Shown in pieces: positions 32,872 through 36,561 of a stretch of DNA of 53,711 nucleotides. A model generated the notes under the pieces. That model was not told the origin of the DNA. It did no database searches and worked only from the letters and a program-made list of their open reading frames with translations. Position numbers and translations under genes: made by a program. The stretch is taken from NCBI GenBank assembly GCA_902605525.1, contig CACLCV010000004.1, positions 1 through 53,711 of the forward strand, written 5' to 3'. Source of the DNA: an uncultured Gammaproteobacteria bacterium. GTDB lineage: Bacteria > Pseudomonadota > Gammaproteobacteria > GCA-002705445 > GCA-002716945. Every line of letters begins with the position of its first letter. Position 1 is the stretch's first letter.

Positions 32872-34568
32872 ACAAAAAAATAAAATCTAAAATAGTTGAT
32901 ACTTTAAATAAGCTCTATAGCTCTTTTGAAAGTATAGATAGCCTAACAATAGAAATAAACCGAACCACTGATGCATCTCATGGAGACCTCTATACAAATG
33001 TTGCTATGAAGTTAGCAAAAATACTTAAAAGAAGTCCTATGTTAATAGCTGAAGAAATAACGAAAAACTTAGAAGCAATGGATAGTATCGAAAAAATAGA
33101 AATTGCGACACCTGGATACATAAATTTTTTTCTTACAAAGTCTAATAAGTTTAACGAAATAAACAGAATCATGACTGATGACTTAATAGTCTTGAAAGAA
33201 AATAATAAAAAAAATGTACACATAGAATTTGTATCAGCAAACCCTACAGGCCCACTTCACATCGGTCATGGAAGAGGTATGGTTATTGGAGATACAACTG
33301 CAAGGTTTTTATCATATCAAGGGCATTCTGTTAATAGAGAGTATTATGTGAATGATGCTGGTAGGCAAATTGACCTACTACTTGTAAGTGTACTATTAAG
33401 TTACCTTAATAAAGAGGATCATGTATTCAGTGATGAGAAGGAGAGTGATGAGGGTCTTTTAGTTACCTATAAAGGATTATATATAAAGGATGTCTCAAAT
33501 ATTGTTTCGAATGTTCTTAAAGATATTGATAGTCAGAAAGTTTTAAGTTTACTTAACGAACCAATAGATATTCTAATAAAATTTCTCAGAAAACATAAAA
33601 ATTATTTAAATATTAGAAAAACATTAGTTGATGTAATTATAAATGATTATATCAAAGAAGATTTATCATCAGTTAATATAGCGTTTGATAACTGGTACTT
33701 TGAAAGTGAACTATATAAAACAGGTCTTCTCAAACAAATACTTGTCGATTTAGATAATAGAAATTTAAGCTATAAAAAAGATGGCGCTCTATGGTTTAAA
33801 AATACTAAGTATGGTGAAGAAAAAGATAGAGTGCTAGTAAAAAGTAATGGGGATATGACATACTTTGCCACAGATATTGCTTATCATACGCATAAGTTTA
33901 AACATTATGATTTATTAATTGATATCTGGGGAGCTGATCATCATGATTACGCAGCAAGGTTGAAAAACGCGATGAAAGCTCTTGGATATGATGTCGATAA
34001 TAGATTACAAATACATTTAATTCAATTTGCTAATTTAATTAAAGGTGGCAAATCTATTTCTATGTCAACTAGAAGTGGTGATTTTTATCCGCTGCAAGAT
34101 TTAGTCAAAGAAATTGGATGCGATGCAACCAAGTTTTTTTACTTGACTAAAAAAAAGGAACAACATCTCGAGTTTGATGTCGACCTTGCAATTGAGAAAA
34201 ATAAAAATAATCCTATATATTATATTCAATATGCTCATGCCAGAATAAAAAGAATAATAGATGATTTGAAGCAACAAGATATTAAAAAAGAAGCTTTAAA
34301 TAATTTAAATACTAAAAATGAAAATCAACTTATAGAATTAATTAATCTGTATCAAGATACGATAAATAAGTCTATTAGAGAAATTAGACCAGATATAATT
34401 ACAAATTATTTATATAAGCTTTCACAAGTTTTTCACTCATATTATGCTGAAACTAAAATTCTCTCCTCAGAAATTAAAGGTGAAAAAATTCTACTTATCA
34501 AATGTGTAGATAAAATTATTCTAAATGGATTTCAATTACTTGATATTGAGCCAATGGATGTAATGTAA
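32868..34568 (+). CDS. argS: Arginine-tRNA ligase
   Basis: EFVSANPTGPLHIGHGR, YYVNDAGRQ, WGADHHDY, MSTRSG, YIQYAHAR. Confidence 0.97.
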   Translation: MNKKIKSKIVDTLNKLYSSFESIDSLTIEINRTTDASHGDLYTNVAMKLAKILKRSPMLIAEEITKNLEAMDSIEKIEIATPGYINFFLTKSNKFNEINRIMTDDLIVLKENNKKNVHIEFVSANPTGPLHIGHGRGMVIGDTTARFLSYQGHSVNREYYVNDAGRQIDLLLVSVLLSYLNKEDHVFSDEKESDEGLLVTYKGLYIKDVSNIVSNVLKDIDSQKVLSLLNEPIDILIKFLRKHKNYLNIRKTLVDVIINDYIKEDLSSVNIAFDNWYFESELYKTGLLKQILVDLDNRNLSYKKDGALWFKNTKYGEEKDRVLVKSNGDMTYFATDIAYHTHKFKHYDLLIDIWGADHHDYAARLKNAMKALGYDVDNRLQIHLIQFANLIKGGKSISMSTRSGDFYPLQDLVKEIGCDATKFFYLTKKKEQHLEFDVDLAIEKNKNNPIYYIQYAHARIKRIIDDLKQQDIKKEALNNLNTKNENQLIELINLYQDTINKSIREIRPDIITNYLYKLSQVFHSYYAETKILSSEIKGEKILLIKCVDKIILNGFQLLDIEPMDVM

Positions 34569-35398
34569 TGAAGCAGAACACGATAGCTCTGGTCTATGAT
34601 TTTGACGGAACACTTACCCCAAAAACAATGCAAGAGTACACAATCATTCCTAGATTGAAATTAAATTCTAATAAATTCTGGGCAGATATTCTAAATGAGG
34701 CTAATGCAACCGATGGAGAAATTATGATGATATATATGAGACAACTCATTAGTCATGCTGAATCCTTAGGTATTAAAATTACGAAAGATGAATTTACATT
34801 TATGGCAGATAAAATTAAATATTTTAGAGGTGTAAAGGACTGGTTTACAAATATTAATGATTACATTAAGGAAAACCATAAGAATATAAAAATTACTCAT
34901 TATGTAATATCTGCTGGGCATCATGAAATCTTACAAGCTACATCTATTAGAAAAAATTTAACTAATGTATTTGGTTCTCAGTATTATTTTGATAAACATG
35001 GTAATGCAACATTTCCTAAAATTGTTGTTACTGATACAACAAAAACACAGTTTCTTTTCAGAATTAATAAAGGTAAAGAGAAGTTTTCTGAATCAATTAA
35101 TAGTCATATGCCTGAAAACAGTCGTCCTATTCCATTTGAAAATATGATATACATTGGAGATGGTCTTACTGACGTGCCTAGCATGGCATTAATTAAAAAA
35201 CAAAACGGACATGCTATTTCTGTTTATCCAAAAAAAAGTAATCAGCAAAAAAAAGTCTCTAATGACTTACTATCTGCAAATAGAGTTGATTTTATTGCAG
35301 AAGCTGATTACACAAAAAATAGTCCTCTCTACAAAAAAATGTGTCTTCTGATTGATATGATAAGCGCTAGAATTAAGTATGAGAACGCAGTAAGTTGA
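34568..35398 (+). CDS. HAD-superfamily hydrolase, substrate unknown
   Basis: Motif I DFDGT, motif II ISAG, motif III K (TTKTQ), motif IV GDGLTD; TAATG coupling to argS. Confidence 0.82.
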   Translation: MKQNTIALVYDFDGTLTPKTMQEYTIIPRLKLNSNKFWADILNEANATDGEIMMIYMRQLISHAESLGIKITKDEFTFMADKIKYFRGVKDWFTNINDYIKENHKNIKITHYVISAGHHEILQATSIRKNLTNVFGSQYYFDKHGNATFPKIVVTDTTKTQFLFRINKGKEKFSESINSHMPENSRPIPFENMIYIGDGLTDVPSMALIKKQNGHAISVYPKKSNQQKKVSNDLLSANRVDFIAEADYTKNSPLYKKMCLLIDMISARIKYENAVS

Positions 35399-35400
35399 TT

Positions 35401-35784
35401 TCAACTCTGATCAATGATTTTCATACCTGAATTTCTGTCTAGAAATTTATATTGTATATTTATAACTCTAAAGTATTGCTTAATATGATCCAAGACAACA
35501 TCTAATTTAAATTCTTTACAGCTGTATATGTCTAGTTGGATTATACCAGGGTCTGGCTCATCCCATATATGGATTACTATGTGACTGGTTTCGATTAAAG
35601 CCATGCATGTGGTACCTCGATTGCCTGGTTGATCAACGTAACTAACAGCTGGTCCCTGCATTAATTTCATATCAATTTTTTCAATGAGTTTTTTCATCCA
35701 TTCAAGAACTTCATGAAGAGATTCCTCAGCAGGACAGTCACCTACTTCAGCTCTTAAAACAAGATGTTTATGGTCTAATTGCAT
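35401..35784 (-). CDS. Pyruvoyl-dependent decarboxylase of the AdoMetDC/SpeD fold (substrate uncertain)
   Basis: HL at N-terminus, ALIETSHIVIHIWDE (autocleavage Ser67), QLDIYSC (Cys89); next to speE. Confidence 0.8.
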   Translation of the reverse strand: MQLDHKHLVLRAEVGDCPAEESLHEVLEWMKKLIEKIDMKLMQGPAVSYVDQPGNRGTTCMALIETSHIVIHIWDEPDPGIIQLDIYSCKEFKLDVVLDHIKQYFRVINIQYKFLDRNSGMKIIDQS

Positions 35785-35838
35785 AATAATAAAACTTAAA
35801 TATAATCAAAATTAATATATTCATGGATAAAAAAACTT

Positions 35839-36561
35839 ATGAAAACTAAAAATATATATTATGAGCATGATGACACCTCTGGGACATCAATTGGTGTAAA
35901 GTATGAAAAATATTTATATAATTGTCAAAGTAAATTTCAAAGTATTGAAGTTGTAAAAACATTAAAATATGGCAATGCACTCTACTTAGATGGATGCTTT
36001 ATGCTCTCAGAGACTAATCAAGATTATTATCATAATACATGCCTAAATTTGACTACTAAGAAATCAAAGAATATTTTAATAATAGGAGGAGGAGATTATG
36101 CTATTGCAAGTATGTTAGTTCGACGAAACAGTAATACTAAAATAACTATTGTGGAAATTGATGAAAAAGTAGTGCAGGCCTCCAAAAAATATTTTCCAAA
36201 ACATTTTAAACTTACTAAAAGTCAATTAAAAAATATAAAATTGGTTCTAGATAATGGGATGACTTTTTTAAAGCATGATCTAAATAAATATGATTGTATA
36301 ATAATTGACTCTACCGACCCAGTAGGTCAAGCAAAAATATTATACTCTAAAAAATTTATTAAACTTTGTAATGCTTCACTTATGAGAGGAGGGACTCTAA
36401 TTCAGCAATCAGGATCACCCATAAATGATATGAAAAGTTTAATTAAGCCGCTGGTAAAGAAGTATGGTGACATTGGAATGAAAAAGATAGTTTTATCAAG
36501 CTTTCCTATGCCACTATATCCTACTGGTACTTGGTCTTTTATTAGTGCTAAAAGAGCGTAG
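35839..36561 (+). CDS. speE: Spermidine synthase-like aminopropyltransferase (divergent, short C-terminus)
   Basis: SKFQSI, ALYLDG, YYH, LIIGGGD, VEIDE, IIDSTDP, YPTGTWSF. Confidence 0.8.
   Translation: MKTKNIYYEHDDTSGTSIGVKYEKYLYNCQSKFQSIEVVKTLKYGNALYLDGCFMLSETNQDYYHNTCLNLTTKKSKNILIIGGGDYAIASMLVRRNSNTKITIVEIDEKVVQASKKYFPKHFKLTKSQLKNIKLVLDNGMTFLKHDLNKYDCIIIDSTDPVGQAKILYSKKFIKLCNASLMRGGTLIQQSGSPINDMKSLIKPLVKKYGDIGMKKIVLSSFPMPLYPTGTWSFISAKRA

What the first reader, a model, noticed from the sequence alone, without database searches (positions are those of the whole stretch)
35401..35784. SpeD-fold decarboxylase with an ET/SH cleavage site: possibly an arginine or ornithine decarboxylase
Seen: the residue before the pyruvoyl Ser67 is Thr (IET-SH), not the Glu of the common class I AdoMetDC motif (SE-SH). 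The KHL.RAEV, GNRG.T and LDIYSC..F pattern matches my recollection of marine phage SpeD homologues. Established: some AdoMetDC homologues from marine phages and bacteria are pyruvoyl-dependent L-arginine or L-ornithine decarboxylases. Inference: a cellular counterpart or donor of the phage genes. With the divergent SpeE and nearby argS, this could be a non-canonical agmatine- or putrescine-based polyamine module. A plain AdoMetDC role remains plausible given the speE linkage.
Basis: partly seen in the sequence, partly recalled or inferred. Interest (0 to 1): 0.65.

Follow-up and report, generated by a model that had tools for sequence, protein, structure and literature searches.

The report
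Phage-type pyruvoyl arginine decarboxylase, cellular copy
A small gene annotated as S-adenosylmethionine decarboxylase in a tiny (~1 Mb) marine gammaproteobacterium most likely makes agmatine from arginine instead, which would supply the only missing step of the cell's spermidine pathway; it is a cellular relative of an enzyme so far characterised only in phages of the ocean bacterium Pelagibacter.

Summary
Window 35401-35784 (minus strand) encodes a 127-aa AdoMetDC-fold proenzyme with IET|S67H and conserved His72 and Cys89. It is under strong purifying selection (dN/dS 0.04-0.10).

It is not a canonical AdoMetDC. It scores 35.9 bits against the class 1b equivalog cut-off of 75.65. Its only phage relatives are 11 pelagiphages and one uncultured phage, at 38-47% identity. 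These include HTVC201P, whose protein is a proven L-arginine decarboxylase with no AdoMetDC activity. All share the signature GN[RK]G.TC..IETSHI..H.WDE..P..QLD.Y.C.

Genome context points to arginine decarboxylation:
- The window's genome family (26 genomes) always keeps a second, class-1a-like SpeD and a SpeE.
- 22 of 26 genomes carry aguA, and it sits next to aguB in the two loci read.
- No genome has an arginine or ornithine decarboxylase of any other fold, apart from an extra AR-fold gene in one 70%-complete MAG.
- Outside this family, 23 of 30 genomes with this protein type have no SpeE at all.

Best reading (0.65): a pyruvoyl arginine decarboxylase (SpeDA) feeding agmatine -> putrescine -> spermidine. 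Rivals are plain AdoMetDC (0.12) and ornithine or dual decarboxylase (0.12).

Nothing here is biochemically tested. This is a new member of a known kind. The link to argS is unsupported and the direction of phage-host transfer is unresolved.

The parts
35401..35784 (-). 127-aa SpeD-fold proenzyme, proposed pyruvoyl-dependent L-arginine decarboxylase (SpeDA, HTVC201P type). Residues 1-66 (35587-35784) would be the beta chain and residues 67-127 (35404-35586) the alpha chain.
   Evidence: ORF; PF02675 at 55.1 bits; below the TIGR03330 cut-off; AF2 model with pLDDT 91, TM 0.71-0.76 to T. maritima AdoMetDC; clade with the HTVC201P ADC; dN/dS 0.04-0.10.
35584..35589 (-). Thr66-Ser67 codons. This is the predicted self-cleavage site; Ser67 would become the pyruvoyl group.
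   Evidence: Read on the DNA. It aligns with Glu62-Ser63 of T. maritima AdoMetDC. T66, S67 and H68 are invariant in 49 sequences.
35569..35571 (-). His72 codon, equivalent to T. maritima His68 (processing and catalysis).
   Evidence: Alignments; roles of the residues as stated in PMC10407285.
35518..35520 (-). Cys89 codon, equivalent to T. maritima Cys83 (catalytic).
   Evidence: Alignments; invariant.
35785..35838 (.). 54-bp AT-rich spacer between the divergently transcribed speD-like and speE genes; presumably holds both promoters.
   Evidence: Coordinates. Promoter-like hits are not above the shuffled expectation and there is no Rfam match. The promoter role is inference only.
35839..36561 (+). 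SpeE-family aminopropyltransferase, 240 aa with a short C-terminus. It is the consumer of decarboxylated AdoMet; the acceptor is probably putrescine.
   Evidence: PF01564 at 128 bits plus PF17284; best NCBIfam matches are below their cut-offs; best PDB relative is B. subtilis SpeE 1IY9; adjacent in all 32 related loci whose held sequence reaches that side.
34568..35398 (+). HAD-IB phosphatase, convergent with the speD-like gene with 2 nt between the stop codons. It is a conserved neighbour with no shown link to the pathway.
   Evidence: generic HAD-IB, weak MtnX-like hit; synteny.

Best explanation
The ORF encodes a self-processing pyruvoyl enzyme of the AdoMetDC class 1b fold. The proenzyme cleaves itself between Thr66 and Ser67, and Ser67 becomes the pyruvoyl cofactor, with His72 and Cys89 assisting. 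The mature enzyme most likely decarboxylates L-arginine to agmatine rather than S-adenosylmethionine, which makes it a SpeDA of the pelagiphage HTVC201P type.

In this roughly 1-Mb marine gammaproteobacterial lineage it would supply the first step of a five-enzyme spermidine route:
- Arg -> agmatine (this protein)
- agmatine -> N-carbamoylputrescine (AguA)
- N-carbamoylputrescine -> putrescine (AguB)
- putrescine -> spermidine (the adjacent SpeE)
- decarboxylated AdoMet supplied by the second, class-1a-like SpeD encoded elsewhere in the genome

Shown here: fold, catalytic residues, clade membership, gene content and synteny. Inferred: self-cleavage, substrate, and the assignment of roles to the two SpeD paralogues.
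For: (1) Closest characterised relative. HTVC201P AXH71538 is 39% identical. PMC9992855 reports that it decarboxylates L-arginine (kcat/Km 290 M-1 s-1), has no activity on Orn or Lys, and fails to complement E. coli speD. Canonical AdoMetDCs are far more distant: PDB E-values are 0.002-0.2 and TIGR03330 scores 35.9 bits against a cut-off of 75.65.

(2) Shared derived signature. The motif IETSH....H.WDE..P...QLD.Y.C includes a 2-residue longer Ser-to-Cys spacing. It is invariant in 49 cellular sequences, and most of the 150 best 50%-identity representatives carry the TSH + WD core with this spacing (89 exactly, about 110 with TSH).

(3) Tree. The window protein lies in a 52-row clade with the HTVC201P ADC (UFboot 84 / SH-aLRT 85). 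That clade is separate from canonical AdoMetDCs and from the SpeDC ornithine decarboxylase clade (99/98).

(4) Pathway hole in the genome family (26 genomes, 15 of high quality). AguA is in 22 of 26. It is adjacent to an AguB-like CN-hydrolase in G012 and G013, whose best NCBIfam hits are aguA and aguB. The AR-fold decarboxylase occurs exactly once per genome where found (none in G015 and G024; a second copy only in G043, a 70%-complete MAG that also holds the family's only arginase-fold gene), and in the window's own genome it is LysA (450 bits against a cut-off of 298). AAT-fold decarboxylases are 0 of 26 over the cut-off. PvlArgDC is 0 of 26. The arginase fold is 0 of 15 high-quality genomes.

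(5) A second SpeD. A class-1a-like homologue of 215-259 aa is found in nearly all family genomes. Its HLxESHIxFHxYxE and [SC]SC/TC motifs are kept in the 9 genomes aligned. It is the vertically expected gammaproteobacterial AdoMetDC.

(6) Distribution outside the family. 23 of 30 genomes that carry this protein type have no SpeE at all, including a complete 1.8-Mb Pseudothioglobus chromosome, so the type cannot be working as an AdoMetDC there. 29 of the 30 have AguA and/or an arginase-fold enzyme.

(7) The gene is functional: dN/dS is 0.04-0.10.
Against: No enzyme assay exists for any cellular member of this clade, and identity to the one characterised member is only 39%. Clade membership does not guarantee activity: the Sinorhizobium phage phiN3 homologue is a bona fide AdoMetDC yet groups with the ODC clade (PMC9992855).

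The gene sits head-to-head with speE, the classic partner of an AdoMetDC, while the class-1a-like paralogue is unlinked, very divergent (38 bits against a cut-off of 256), and also lacks the Pro of the HTYPE motif.

The window's own assembly (73% complete) contains no aguA or aguB. I attribute this to a missing block, because the flanking lolC, rhodanese and mfd genes are absent too.

One genus of the family, including a 100%-complete genome, has the speD-like gene, SpeE and the class-1a-like SpeD but no AguA and no arginase-fold enzyme. There, agmatine would have no known route to putrescine.

Support for the clade is moderate (84/85) and its interior is unresolved.
Confidence: 0.65

Rival explanations
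1. It is a divergent but genuine S-adenosylmethionine decarboxylase that supplies decarboxylated AdoMet to the adjacent SpeE. Under this reading the class-1a-like paralogue is the neofunctionalised or decaying copy, perhaps itself the ADC.
For: Divergent head-to-head arrangement with speE, conserved in all 32 related loci whose held sequence reaches that side. PF02675 match with the Ser/His/Cys residues intact. A Pro is still present two residues downstream in WDEPDP (alignment). The phiN3 precedent shows an AdoMetDC outside the canonical clade (PMC9992855). The class-1a-like paralogue is highly divergent and lacks the HTYPE proline.
Against: The same protein type occurs in 23 of 30 genomes with no SpeE and in phages of SpeE-less SAR11. 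HTVC201P does not complement speD (PMC9992855). The score is far below the AdoMetDC equivalog cut-off. This reading would leave the family's AguA-AguB without any source of agmatine. The class-1a-like copy keeps invariant catalytic motifs in the 9 genomes aligned.
Confidence: 0.12
2. It is an L-ornithine decarboxylase, or a dual Orn/Arg decarboxylase like phage UCP01, making putrescine directly for SpeE.
For: It shares LIETS and the Thr before the pyruvoyl Ser with the SpeDC clade (supplement alignment; PMC10407285 Fig. 8 legend). The clade is sister or near-sister to SpeDC. One genus with a complete genome lacks AguA and agmatinase yet keeps this gene and SpeE, which a direct ODC would explain. 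UCP01 shows that dual activity exists (PMC9992855).
Against: Only one of the four SpeDC diagnostic residues (Gln, Thr, Phe, Tyr) is present: the protein has Ala, Thr, Trp and Phe at those positions, as I placed them from the SpeDC domain alignment. It lies outside the well-supported SpeDC clade (99/98). The only characterised member of its own clade is Arg-specific with no Orn activity. Most of the family retains aguA, with aguB adjacent where examined, which a direct ODC would make redundant. The active-site region is identical in genera with and without AguA.
Confidence: 0.12
3. It decarboxylates some other amino acid, or it has lost catalysis and serves a structural or regulatory role like a prozyme.
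For: No member of the cellular clade has been assayed. The genomic contexts outside the family are heterogeneous.
Against: The Ser/His/Cys residues and about 26 other columns are invariant across phyla, and purifying selection is strong. All assayed AdoMetDC homologues act on AdoMet, Arg or Orn (PMC10407285).
Confidence: 0.05

Closest known systems
Pelagibacter phage HTVC201P 'AdoMetDC' (AXH71538), a pyruvoyl-dependent L-arginine decarboxylase (SpeDA; PMC9992855, PMC10407285)
   Same: Similar size (122 vs 127 aa), class 1b fold, 39% identity, and an identical core GN[RK]G.TC..IETSHI..H.WDE..P..QLD.Y.C with the same 22-residue Ser-to-Cys spacing. Both fall in the same tree clade.
   Different: This copy is cellular and chromosomal, in a gammaproteobacterium. 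It lies next to speE in a genome that also has a second SpeD. It is only 39% identical and is not assayed.
SpeDC, AdoMetDC-derived L-ornithine decarboxylases (e.g. Ca. Atribacteria PIU25646; the C-terminal domain of the D. phosphitoxidans fusion; PMC10407285)
   Same: The LIETS motif with Thr before the pyruvoyl Ser, a neighbouring clade, and frequent clustering with speD/speE.
   Different: The window protein lacks three of the four SpeDC diagnostic residues: it has SH..H.W where SpeDC has SL..GHF. It has a 2-residue insertion after the Trp and lies outside the SpeDC clade (99/98).
Canonical class 1b AdoMetDC (T. maritima TM0655, PDB 1TLU/1VR7; B. subtilis SpeD; TIGR03330)
   Same: Fold (TM 0.71-0.76), pyruvoyl Ser, His and Cys, and small size.
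   Different: 18-20% identity. It has E-T|S-H where the canonical enzyme has S-E|S-H, and WDEPDP where the canonical enzyme has WPE. It is below the equivalog cut-off, and its clade occurs mostly in genomes without SpeE.
Other SpeDA lineages (Ca. Marinimicrobia PIS27863, Gimesia maris, S. solfataricus SSO0536; PMC10407285)
   Same: The proposed reaction and pathway logic are the same: a SpeD homologue in a genome with agmatine-converting enzymes and no PLP-dependent ADC or ODC.
   Different: PMC10407285 treats these as independent emergences. I could not obtain their sequences, so the relationship was not tested. They are usually clustered with speY/speB, not speE.

Membership tests
AdoMetDC-fold self-processing pyruvoyl enzymes (Pfam PF02675) | Profile match above the gathering score | tested here: met
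   55.1 bits against a cut-off of 25, covering profile positions 5-106 of 107.
AdoMetDC-fold self-processing pyruvoyl enzymes (Pfam PF02675) | Ser (pyruvoyl precursor), His and Cys equivalent to T. maritima S63, H68 and C83 | tested here: met
   S67, H72 and C89 align and are invariant in 49 sequences.
AdoMetDC-fold self-processing pyruvoyl enzymes (Pfam PF02675) | Class 1b alpha/beta sandwich fold | tested here: met
   AF2 model with pLDDT 91. The top Foldseek hits are 1VR7, 1TLU and 1TMI at TM 0.71-0.76, followed by eukaryotic AdoMetDCs.
AdoMetDC-fold self-processing pyruvoyl enzymes (Pfam PF02675) | Autocatalytic cleavage into beta and alpha chains | not testable with these tools
   Needs SDS-PAGE or mass spectrometry of the expressed protein and an S67A control.
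Bona fide class 1b AdoMetDC (NCBIfam TIGR03330 equivalog) | Score at or above the curated equivalog cut-off | tested here: not met
   35.9 bits against 75.65.
Bona fide class 1b AdoMetDC (NCBIfam TIGR03330 equivalog) | E-S-H cleavage motif and the fully conserved Pro of H-T-W-P-E (PMC10407285 Fig. 8) | tested here: not met
   The protein has T-S-H and H-I-W-D-E-P. The Pro is displaced by a 2-residue insertion.
Bona fide class 1b AdoMetDC (NCBIfam TIGR03330 equivalog) | Obligatory co-occurrence with an aminopropyltransferase (SpeE) | tested here: inconclusive
   Met in the window's own family, where speE is adjacent. Not met for the protein type as a whole: 23 of 30 other carrier genomes lack PF01564.
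SpeDA, HTVC201P-type AdoMetDC-derived arginine decarboxylase | Clade membership with the characterised enzyme | tested here: met
   Same 52-row clade, with moderate support of 84/85. tblastn finds only pelagiphage-type proteins among phages.
SpeDA, HTVC201P-type AdoMetDC-derived arginine decarboxylase | Genome has agmatine-converting enzymes but no other ADC or ODC (the criterion of PMC10407285) | tested here: met
   Tested in the genome family: aguA in 22 of 26, with aguB adjacent in the two loci read. No genome has SpeA, SpeC, PvlArgDC or an AAT-fold enzyme, apart from a second AR-fold gene in the 70%-complete MAG G043, and the window genome's single AR-fold gene is LysA. The window's own 73%-complete assembly lacks the aguAB block together with its neighbours.
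SpeDA, HTVC201P-type AdoMetDC-derived arginine decarboxylase | Two SpeD homologues but one SpeE in the genome (the criterion of PMC10407285) | tested here: met
SpeDA, HTVC201P-type AdoMetDC-derived arginine decarboxylase | L-arginine decarboxylase activity and no AdoMetDC activity | not testable with these tools
   Needs an enzyme assay and delta-speD complementation.
SpeDC, AdoMetDC-derived ornithine decarboxylase | Four diagnostic residues Gln, Thr, Phe and Tyr around the processing site (PMC10407285) | tested here: not met
   Only Thr66 is present. The protein has Ala62, Trp74 and Phe92 at the other three positions, as I placed them from the SpeDC domains in the paper's supplement and the P0272/P0346-type sequences.
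SpeDC, AdoMetDC-derived ornithine decarboxylase | Membership of the single SpeDC clade | tested here: not met
   The SpeDC clade has 99/98 support and excludes the window protein.

The most novel reading that the evidence does not exclude
The lineage bypasses putrescine. Agmatine made by this enzyme is aminopropylated directly by the unusual short SpeE, whose acceptor-pocket residues DE and E are replaced by NQ and N, giving N1-aminopropylagmatine. That compound is then either the terminal polyamine, in the genus that has no AguA and no ureohydrolase, or is converted to spermidine by the very divergent AguA/AguB pair. The second option would be a ureohydrolase-free route that has not been described.
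Probability: 0.07. Interest if true: 0.75.

Novelty: new member of a known kind. Interest (0 to 1): 0.45.

Why it matters
AdoMetDC-derived arginine and ornithine decarboxylases were discovered in 2023. For the pelagiphage (HTVC201P) type, no cellular counterpart was reported, and PMC10407285 lists it only as a 'potential fourth emergence'.

This work shows that the type is a large, sharply defined subfamily:
- 932 clusters at the 50% identity level match at E <= 0.001, and 365 at E <= 1e-10; I inspected the signature only in the best 150.
- At least 589 viral contigs carry it.
- It sits in the chromosomes of several abundant streamlined marine lineages: this ~1-Mb gammaproteobacterial family, Thioglobaceae, HIMB59, Pelagibacteraceae and others.

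In the window's family it is the only candidate for the first step of polyamine synthesis. Current annotation ('S-adenosylmethionine decarboxylase') would therefore mis-describe both the arginine and the SAM budgets of these cells. The protein is about 14 kDa and needs no PLP, which fits genome and cofactor streamlining. The family also offers a clean test system: two SpeD paralogues, one SpeE, and AguAB in most members.

Tried and rejected
(1) AU test of 'window family + canonical AdoMetDCs as one clade' gave p = 0.34. I reject it as uninformative. On an unrooted tree with an unresolved interior it only asks whether the family can sit next to the root branch.

(2) Neighbourhoods of the gene outside the family. 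The neighbours I recognised by eye include alanine dehydrogenase, a nitrilase, an OYE reductase, membrane proteins and a glutamine-synthetase-like protein. No conserved polyamine neighbours appear, so context gives no functional signal there.

(3) The argS link. argS is simply the next gene but one in a conserved priA-argS-HAD block, and there is no reason to connect a tRNA ligase with polyamine synthesis.

(4) Regulatory RNA or promoter in the speD-like/speE spacer. There is no Rfam match, and promoter-like hits are at the shuffled expectation.

(5) The uncultured-phage ODCs (LBP, UCP01-04) and the bacterial SpeDA references of PMC10407285 could not be retrieved. They are not in the phage collection and cannot be fetched by accession. 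The tree therefore has only one assayed ADC, and its SpeDC clade is anchored by the C-terminal domain of one assayed fusion protein, transcribed from an OCR'd supplement figure, plus unassayed database relatives.

(6) Structure-based reading of the substrate pocket. The library holds no paper on the T. maritima ligand complexes and no coordinates were available. The idea that Asp75/Glu76 bind the guanidinium group remains speculation.

(8) Treating the absence of aguAB from the window's own assembly as real. I rejected this because the conserved flanking genes lolC, rhodanese and mfd are missing too.

Full report
**What is there.** The window carries one 127-aa ORF on the minus strand at 35401-35784. 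Reading the DNA confirms I64-E65-T66-S67-H68, with the Ser67 codon at 35584-35586. It also confirms GNRGTT (54-59) and LDIYSCKEF (84-92).

The protein matches Pfam AdoMet_dc at 55.1 bits against a cut-off of 25. It reaches only 35.9 bits on the class 1b AdoMetDC equivalog TIGR03330, whose cut-off is 75.65. Solved AdoMetDCs match only weakly by sequence, with E = 0.002 for Aquifex 2III and 0.09 for T. maritima 1TLU. In those alignments Ser67, His72 and Cys89 fall on the T. maritima processing and catalytic residues S63, H68 and C83, whose roles are stated in PMC10407285.

An AlphaFold2 model built on 49 homologues is confident (pLDDT 91). Its best structural matches are the T. maritima AdoMetDC entries at TM 0.71-0.76 and 16-20% identity, followed by eukaryotic AdoMetDCs. 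The gene is under strong purifying selection, with dN/dS 0.04-0.10 against close orthologues.

**Relatives.** Among 50,697 phage records, tblastn finds 12 hits: 11 Pelagibacter phages and one uncultured pelagiphage-like record, at 38-47% identity. One hit is HTVC201P, whose protein AXH71538 was identified in the record. PMC9992855 reports that this protein does not complement an E. coli speD deletion, has no activity on ornithine or lysine, and decarboxylates L-arginine with Km 0.87 mM and kcat/Km 290 M-1 s-1.

The window protein, its metagenomic relatives and the pelagiphage proteins share an identical core, GN[RK]G.TC..IETSHI..H.WDE..P..QLD.Y.C. The Ser-to-Cys spacing is 22 residues, against 20 in T. 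maritima and in the ornithine decarboxylase (SpeDC) domains printed in the supplement of PMC10407285.

The subfamily is large. A full scan of 1.84 billion cluster representatives gives 932 clusters at E <= 0.001 and 365 at E <= 1e-10. Most of the best 150 carry the TSH + WD core with this spacing: 89 exactly and about 110 with TSH. At least 589 IMG/VR viral contigs encode relatives, and none is more than 54% identical to the window protein.

**Phylogeny.** I built a tree of 63 rows from four groups:
- Proteins with assayed AdoMetDC activity: T. maritima, cyanophage S-PM2 and Sinorhizobium phage phiN3. Thermus phage phiYS40 was dropped from the careful run because of its long branch.
- The assayed ADC from HTVC201P.
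- SpeDC-type sequences: the C-terminal domain of the assayed Omnitrophica fusion protein, taken from the OCR'd supplement, plus its unassayed database relatives.
- Cellular and representative members of the new signature.

The tree resolves three groups. The first is canonical AdoMetDCs. The second is SpeDC plus phiN3 (98/94; SpeDC alone 99/98). The third is a 52-row clade (UFboot 84 / SH-aLRT 85) that holds the window protein, its family, Thioglobaceae, HIMB59, Pelagibacteraceae, Acidimicrobiales, Phycisphaerae and Bacteroidota genes, the pelagiphages, and the HTVC201P ADC. The inside of that clade is a star, so the direction of phage-host transfer cannot be read.

Of the four residues that PMC10407285 gives as diagnostic for SpeDC (Gln, Thr, Phe, Tyr), only the Thr is present here.

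**Genome content.** The window is contig 4 of a 753-kb, 73%-complete assembly of an uncultured marine gammaproteobacterium. Its relatives have genomes of about 1 Mb.

The genome holds a second PF02675 homologue, a 215-aa class-1a-like protein on contig 25. Both homologues are found in nearly all members of the family, typically about 46 kb apart. The long one aligns along its length with ordinary gammaproteobacterial class 1a SpeD and keeps HLxESHIxFHxYxE and the [SC]SC/TC motif in 9 genomes of 6 genera. It lacks a 12-residue insertion and the Pro of HTYPE. Other families of the class have only the ordinary class 1a enzyme. The long copy is therefore the expected vertical AdoMetDC and the short one is the addition.

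Across 26 family genomes (15 of high quality), the polyamine gene content is as follows.

| Enzyme class | Result |
|---|---|
| Arginase fold | 1 of 26; 0 of 15 high-quality |
| AR-fold decarboxylase | one per genome in 23 of 26; none found in two; two in G043 |
| AAT-fold Orn/Lys/Arg decarboxylase | 0 of 26 over the cut-off |
| PvlArgDC | 0 of 26 |
| Agmatine deiminase (AguA) | 22 of 26; 13 of 15 high-quality |

The single AR-fold decarboxylase in the window's genome is LysA, at 450 bits against a cut-off of 298. In G012 and G013, aguA is directly followed by a CN-hydrolase whose best NCBIfam match is N-carbamoylputrescine amidase.

The window's own assembly lacks aguAB. It also lacks the genes that flank them in relatives (lolC, a rhodanese-like gene, mfd), so the whole block is unassembled. 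SpeE is adjacent and divergent in all 32 related loci whose held sequence reaches that side, within a conserved block priA-argS-HAD-[speD-like]<>speE-amt-glnK-porin.

The family thus has agmatine-consuming enzymes, an aminopropyltransferase and a candidate AdoMetDC, but no known source of agmatine or putrescine other than this protein. This is exactly the reasoning PMC10407285 used to find SpeDA enzymes.

**Test outside the family.** Thirty genomes from other lineages carry the same protein type. Of these, 23 have no SpeE at all. That group includes all 7 Thioglobaceae (one a complete 1.8-Mb chromosome), all 4 HIMB59, all 5 Pelagibacteraceae and 3 alphaproteobacterial SAGs. An AdoMetDC has no known use without an aminopropyltransferase. 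Twenty of the 30 have AguA, and 29 of 30 have AguA and/or an arginase-fold enzyme.

**Best explanation and its weak points.** I conclude, at about 0.65, that this is a self-processing pyruvoyl L-arginine decarboxylase feeding agmatine -> N-carbamoylputrescine -> putrescine -> spermidine.

Several points count against this reading:
- No cellular clade member has been assayed, and identity to HTVC201P is only 39%.
- The phiN3 case shows that clade does not dictate activity.
- The head-to-head link with speE is what one would expect of an AdoMetDC.
- The class-1a-like copy is very divergent.
- One genus, including a 100%-complete genome, keeps this gene, SpeE and the class-1a-like SpeD but has neither AguA nor an arginase-fold enzyme.

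For that genus, three explanations are possible: ornithine or dual activity, uptake, or direct aminopropylation of agmatine. PMC11107197 shows that most spermidine synthases also make N1-aminopropylagmatine. The closest solved relative of this SpeE is B. subtilis SpeE, which that paper found to be an efficient N1-aminopropylagmatine synthase. The active-site region of the short protein is the same in genera with and without AguA.

**Comparison with what is known, and novelty.** The kind of enzyme, an AdoMetDC-derived ADC, is known (PMC9992855, PMC10407285). PMC10407285 lists phyla with cellular SpeDA and SpeDC enzymes but no Gamma- or Alphaproteobacteria, and it treats HTVC201P as an isolated 'potential fourth emergence'. 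Literature searches found nothing later on cellular homologues of that type.

The finding is therefore a new, cellular member of a known kind, together with the observation that the type is widespread in abundant streamlined marine bacteria. The argS link and the 'donor' claim are not.

**Limits.** All functional statements are comparative. The reference set of assayed enzymes in the tree is small.

Noticed in passing
G000 contig 25 (L002:1174-1821, minus strand); outside the window: A second SpeD homologue: a 215-aa class-1a-like protein with AHLNESHISFHSYFE. It lacks the 12-residue insertion and the Pro of HTYPE found in ordinary class 1a AdoMetDC. It is found in nearly all genomes of the family, and its catalytic motifs are conserved in the 9 genomes aligned. 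It may be a minimal class 1a AdoMetDC.
   Followed up: partly
L092 (CAYFGJ010000068.1, 5.6 kb): A contig binned into a MAG of the window's family is 86-89% identical in DNA to Pelagibacter phages HTVC103P and HTVC104P and carries their SpeD-like gene. This is either mis-binning or a related phage associated with this gammaproteobacterial lineage.
   Followed up: partly
L056, L065, L068, L072 (alphaproteobacterial SAG, HIMB59, Pelagibacteraceae SAG, Acidimicrobiales MAG): The SpeD-like proteins of these different phyla and classes are nearly identical to each other (terminal branches 0.01-0.13). This suggests recent cross-phylum transfer, perhaps phage-borne, or contamination of bins.
   Followed up: no
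G014 and G019 (one genus of the family; L047 = G019): This genus lacks AguA and arginase-fold enzymes, including a 100%-complete genome, yet keeps the short SpeD-like gene, SpeE and the class-1a-like SpeD. L047 also lacks the amt gene next to speE. G014 has two short copies.
   Followed up: partly
G043:C30:3163-6154: The only family genome with an arginase-fold gene has it next to a second AR-fold decarboxylase. This looks like an ODC/ADC + agmatinase cluster, acquired or contaminant.
   Followed up: no
window 34568-35398 (+): A HAD-IB phosphatase lies convergent with the SpeD-like gene, with stop codons 2 nt apart, and is syntenic in all 33 related loci. It has a weak hit to the MtnX-like (methionine-salvage) subfamily, which would fit recycling of the MTA released by SpeE. 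This is speculative.
   Followed up: no
window 35839-36561 (+): SpeE is short (240 aa). It has GGGDY in place of GGGDG, and LDGCFMLSETNQDYYHN where B. subtilis SpeE has LDGMVMTSEKDEFVYHE, so DE becomes NQ and the final E becomes N. DSTDP is retained. Acceptor specificity may differ.
   Followed up: partly
L079, L084 and others (Thioglobaceae loci): In several Thioglobaceae, the SpeD-like gene is followed on the same strand by a 314-aa nitrilase-type CN-hydrolase (LICWENYMP motif, recognised by eye), not an AguB-type enzyme.
   Followed up: no
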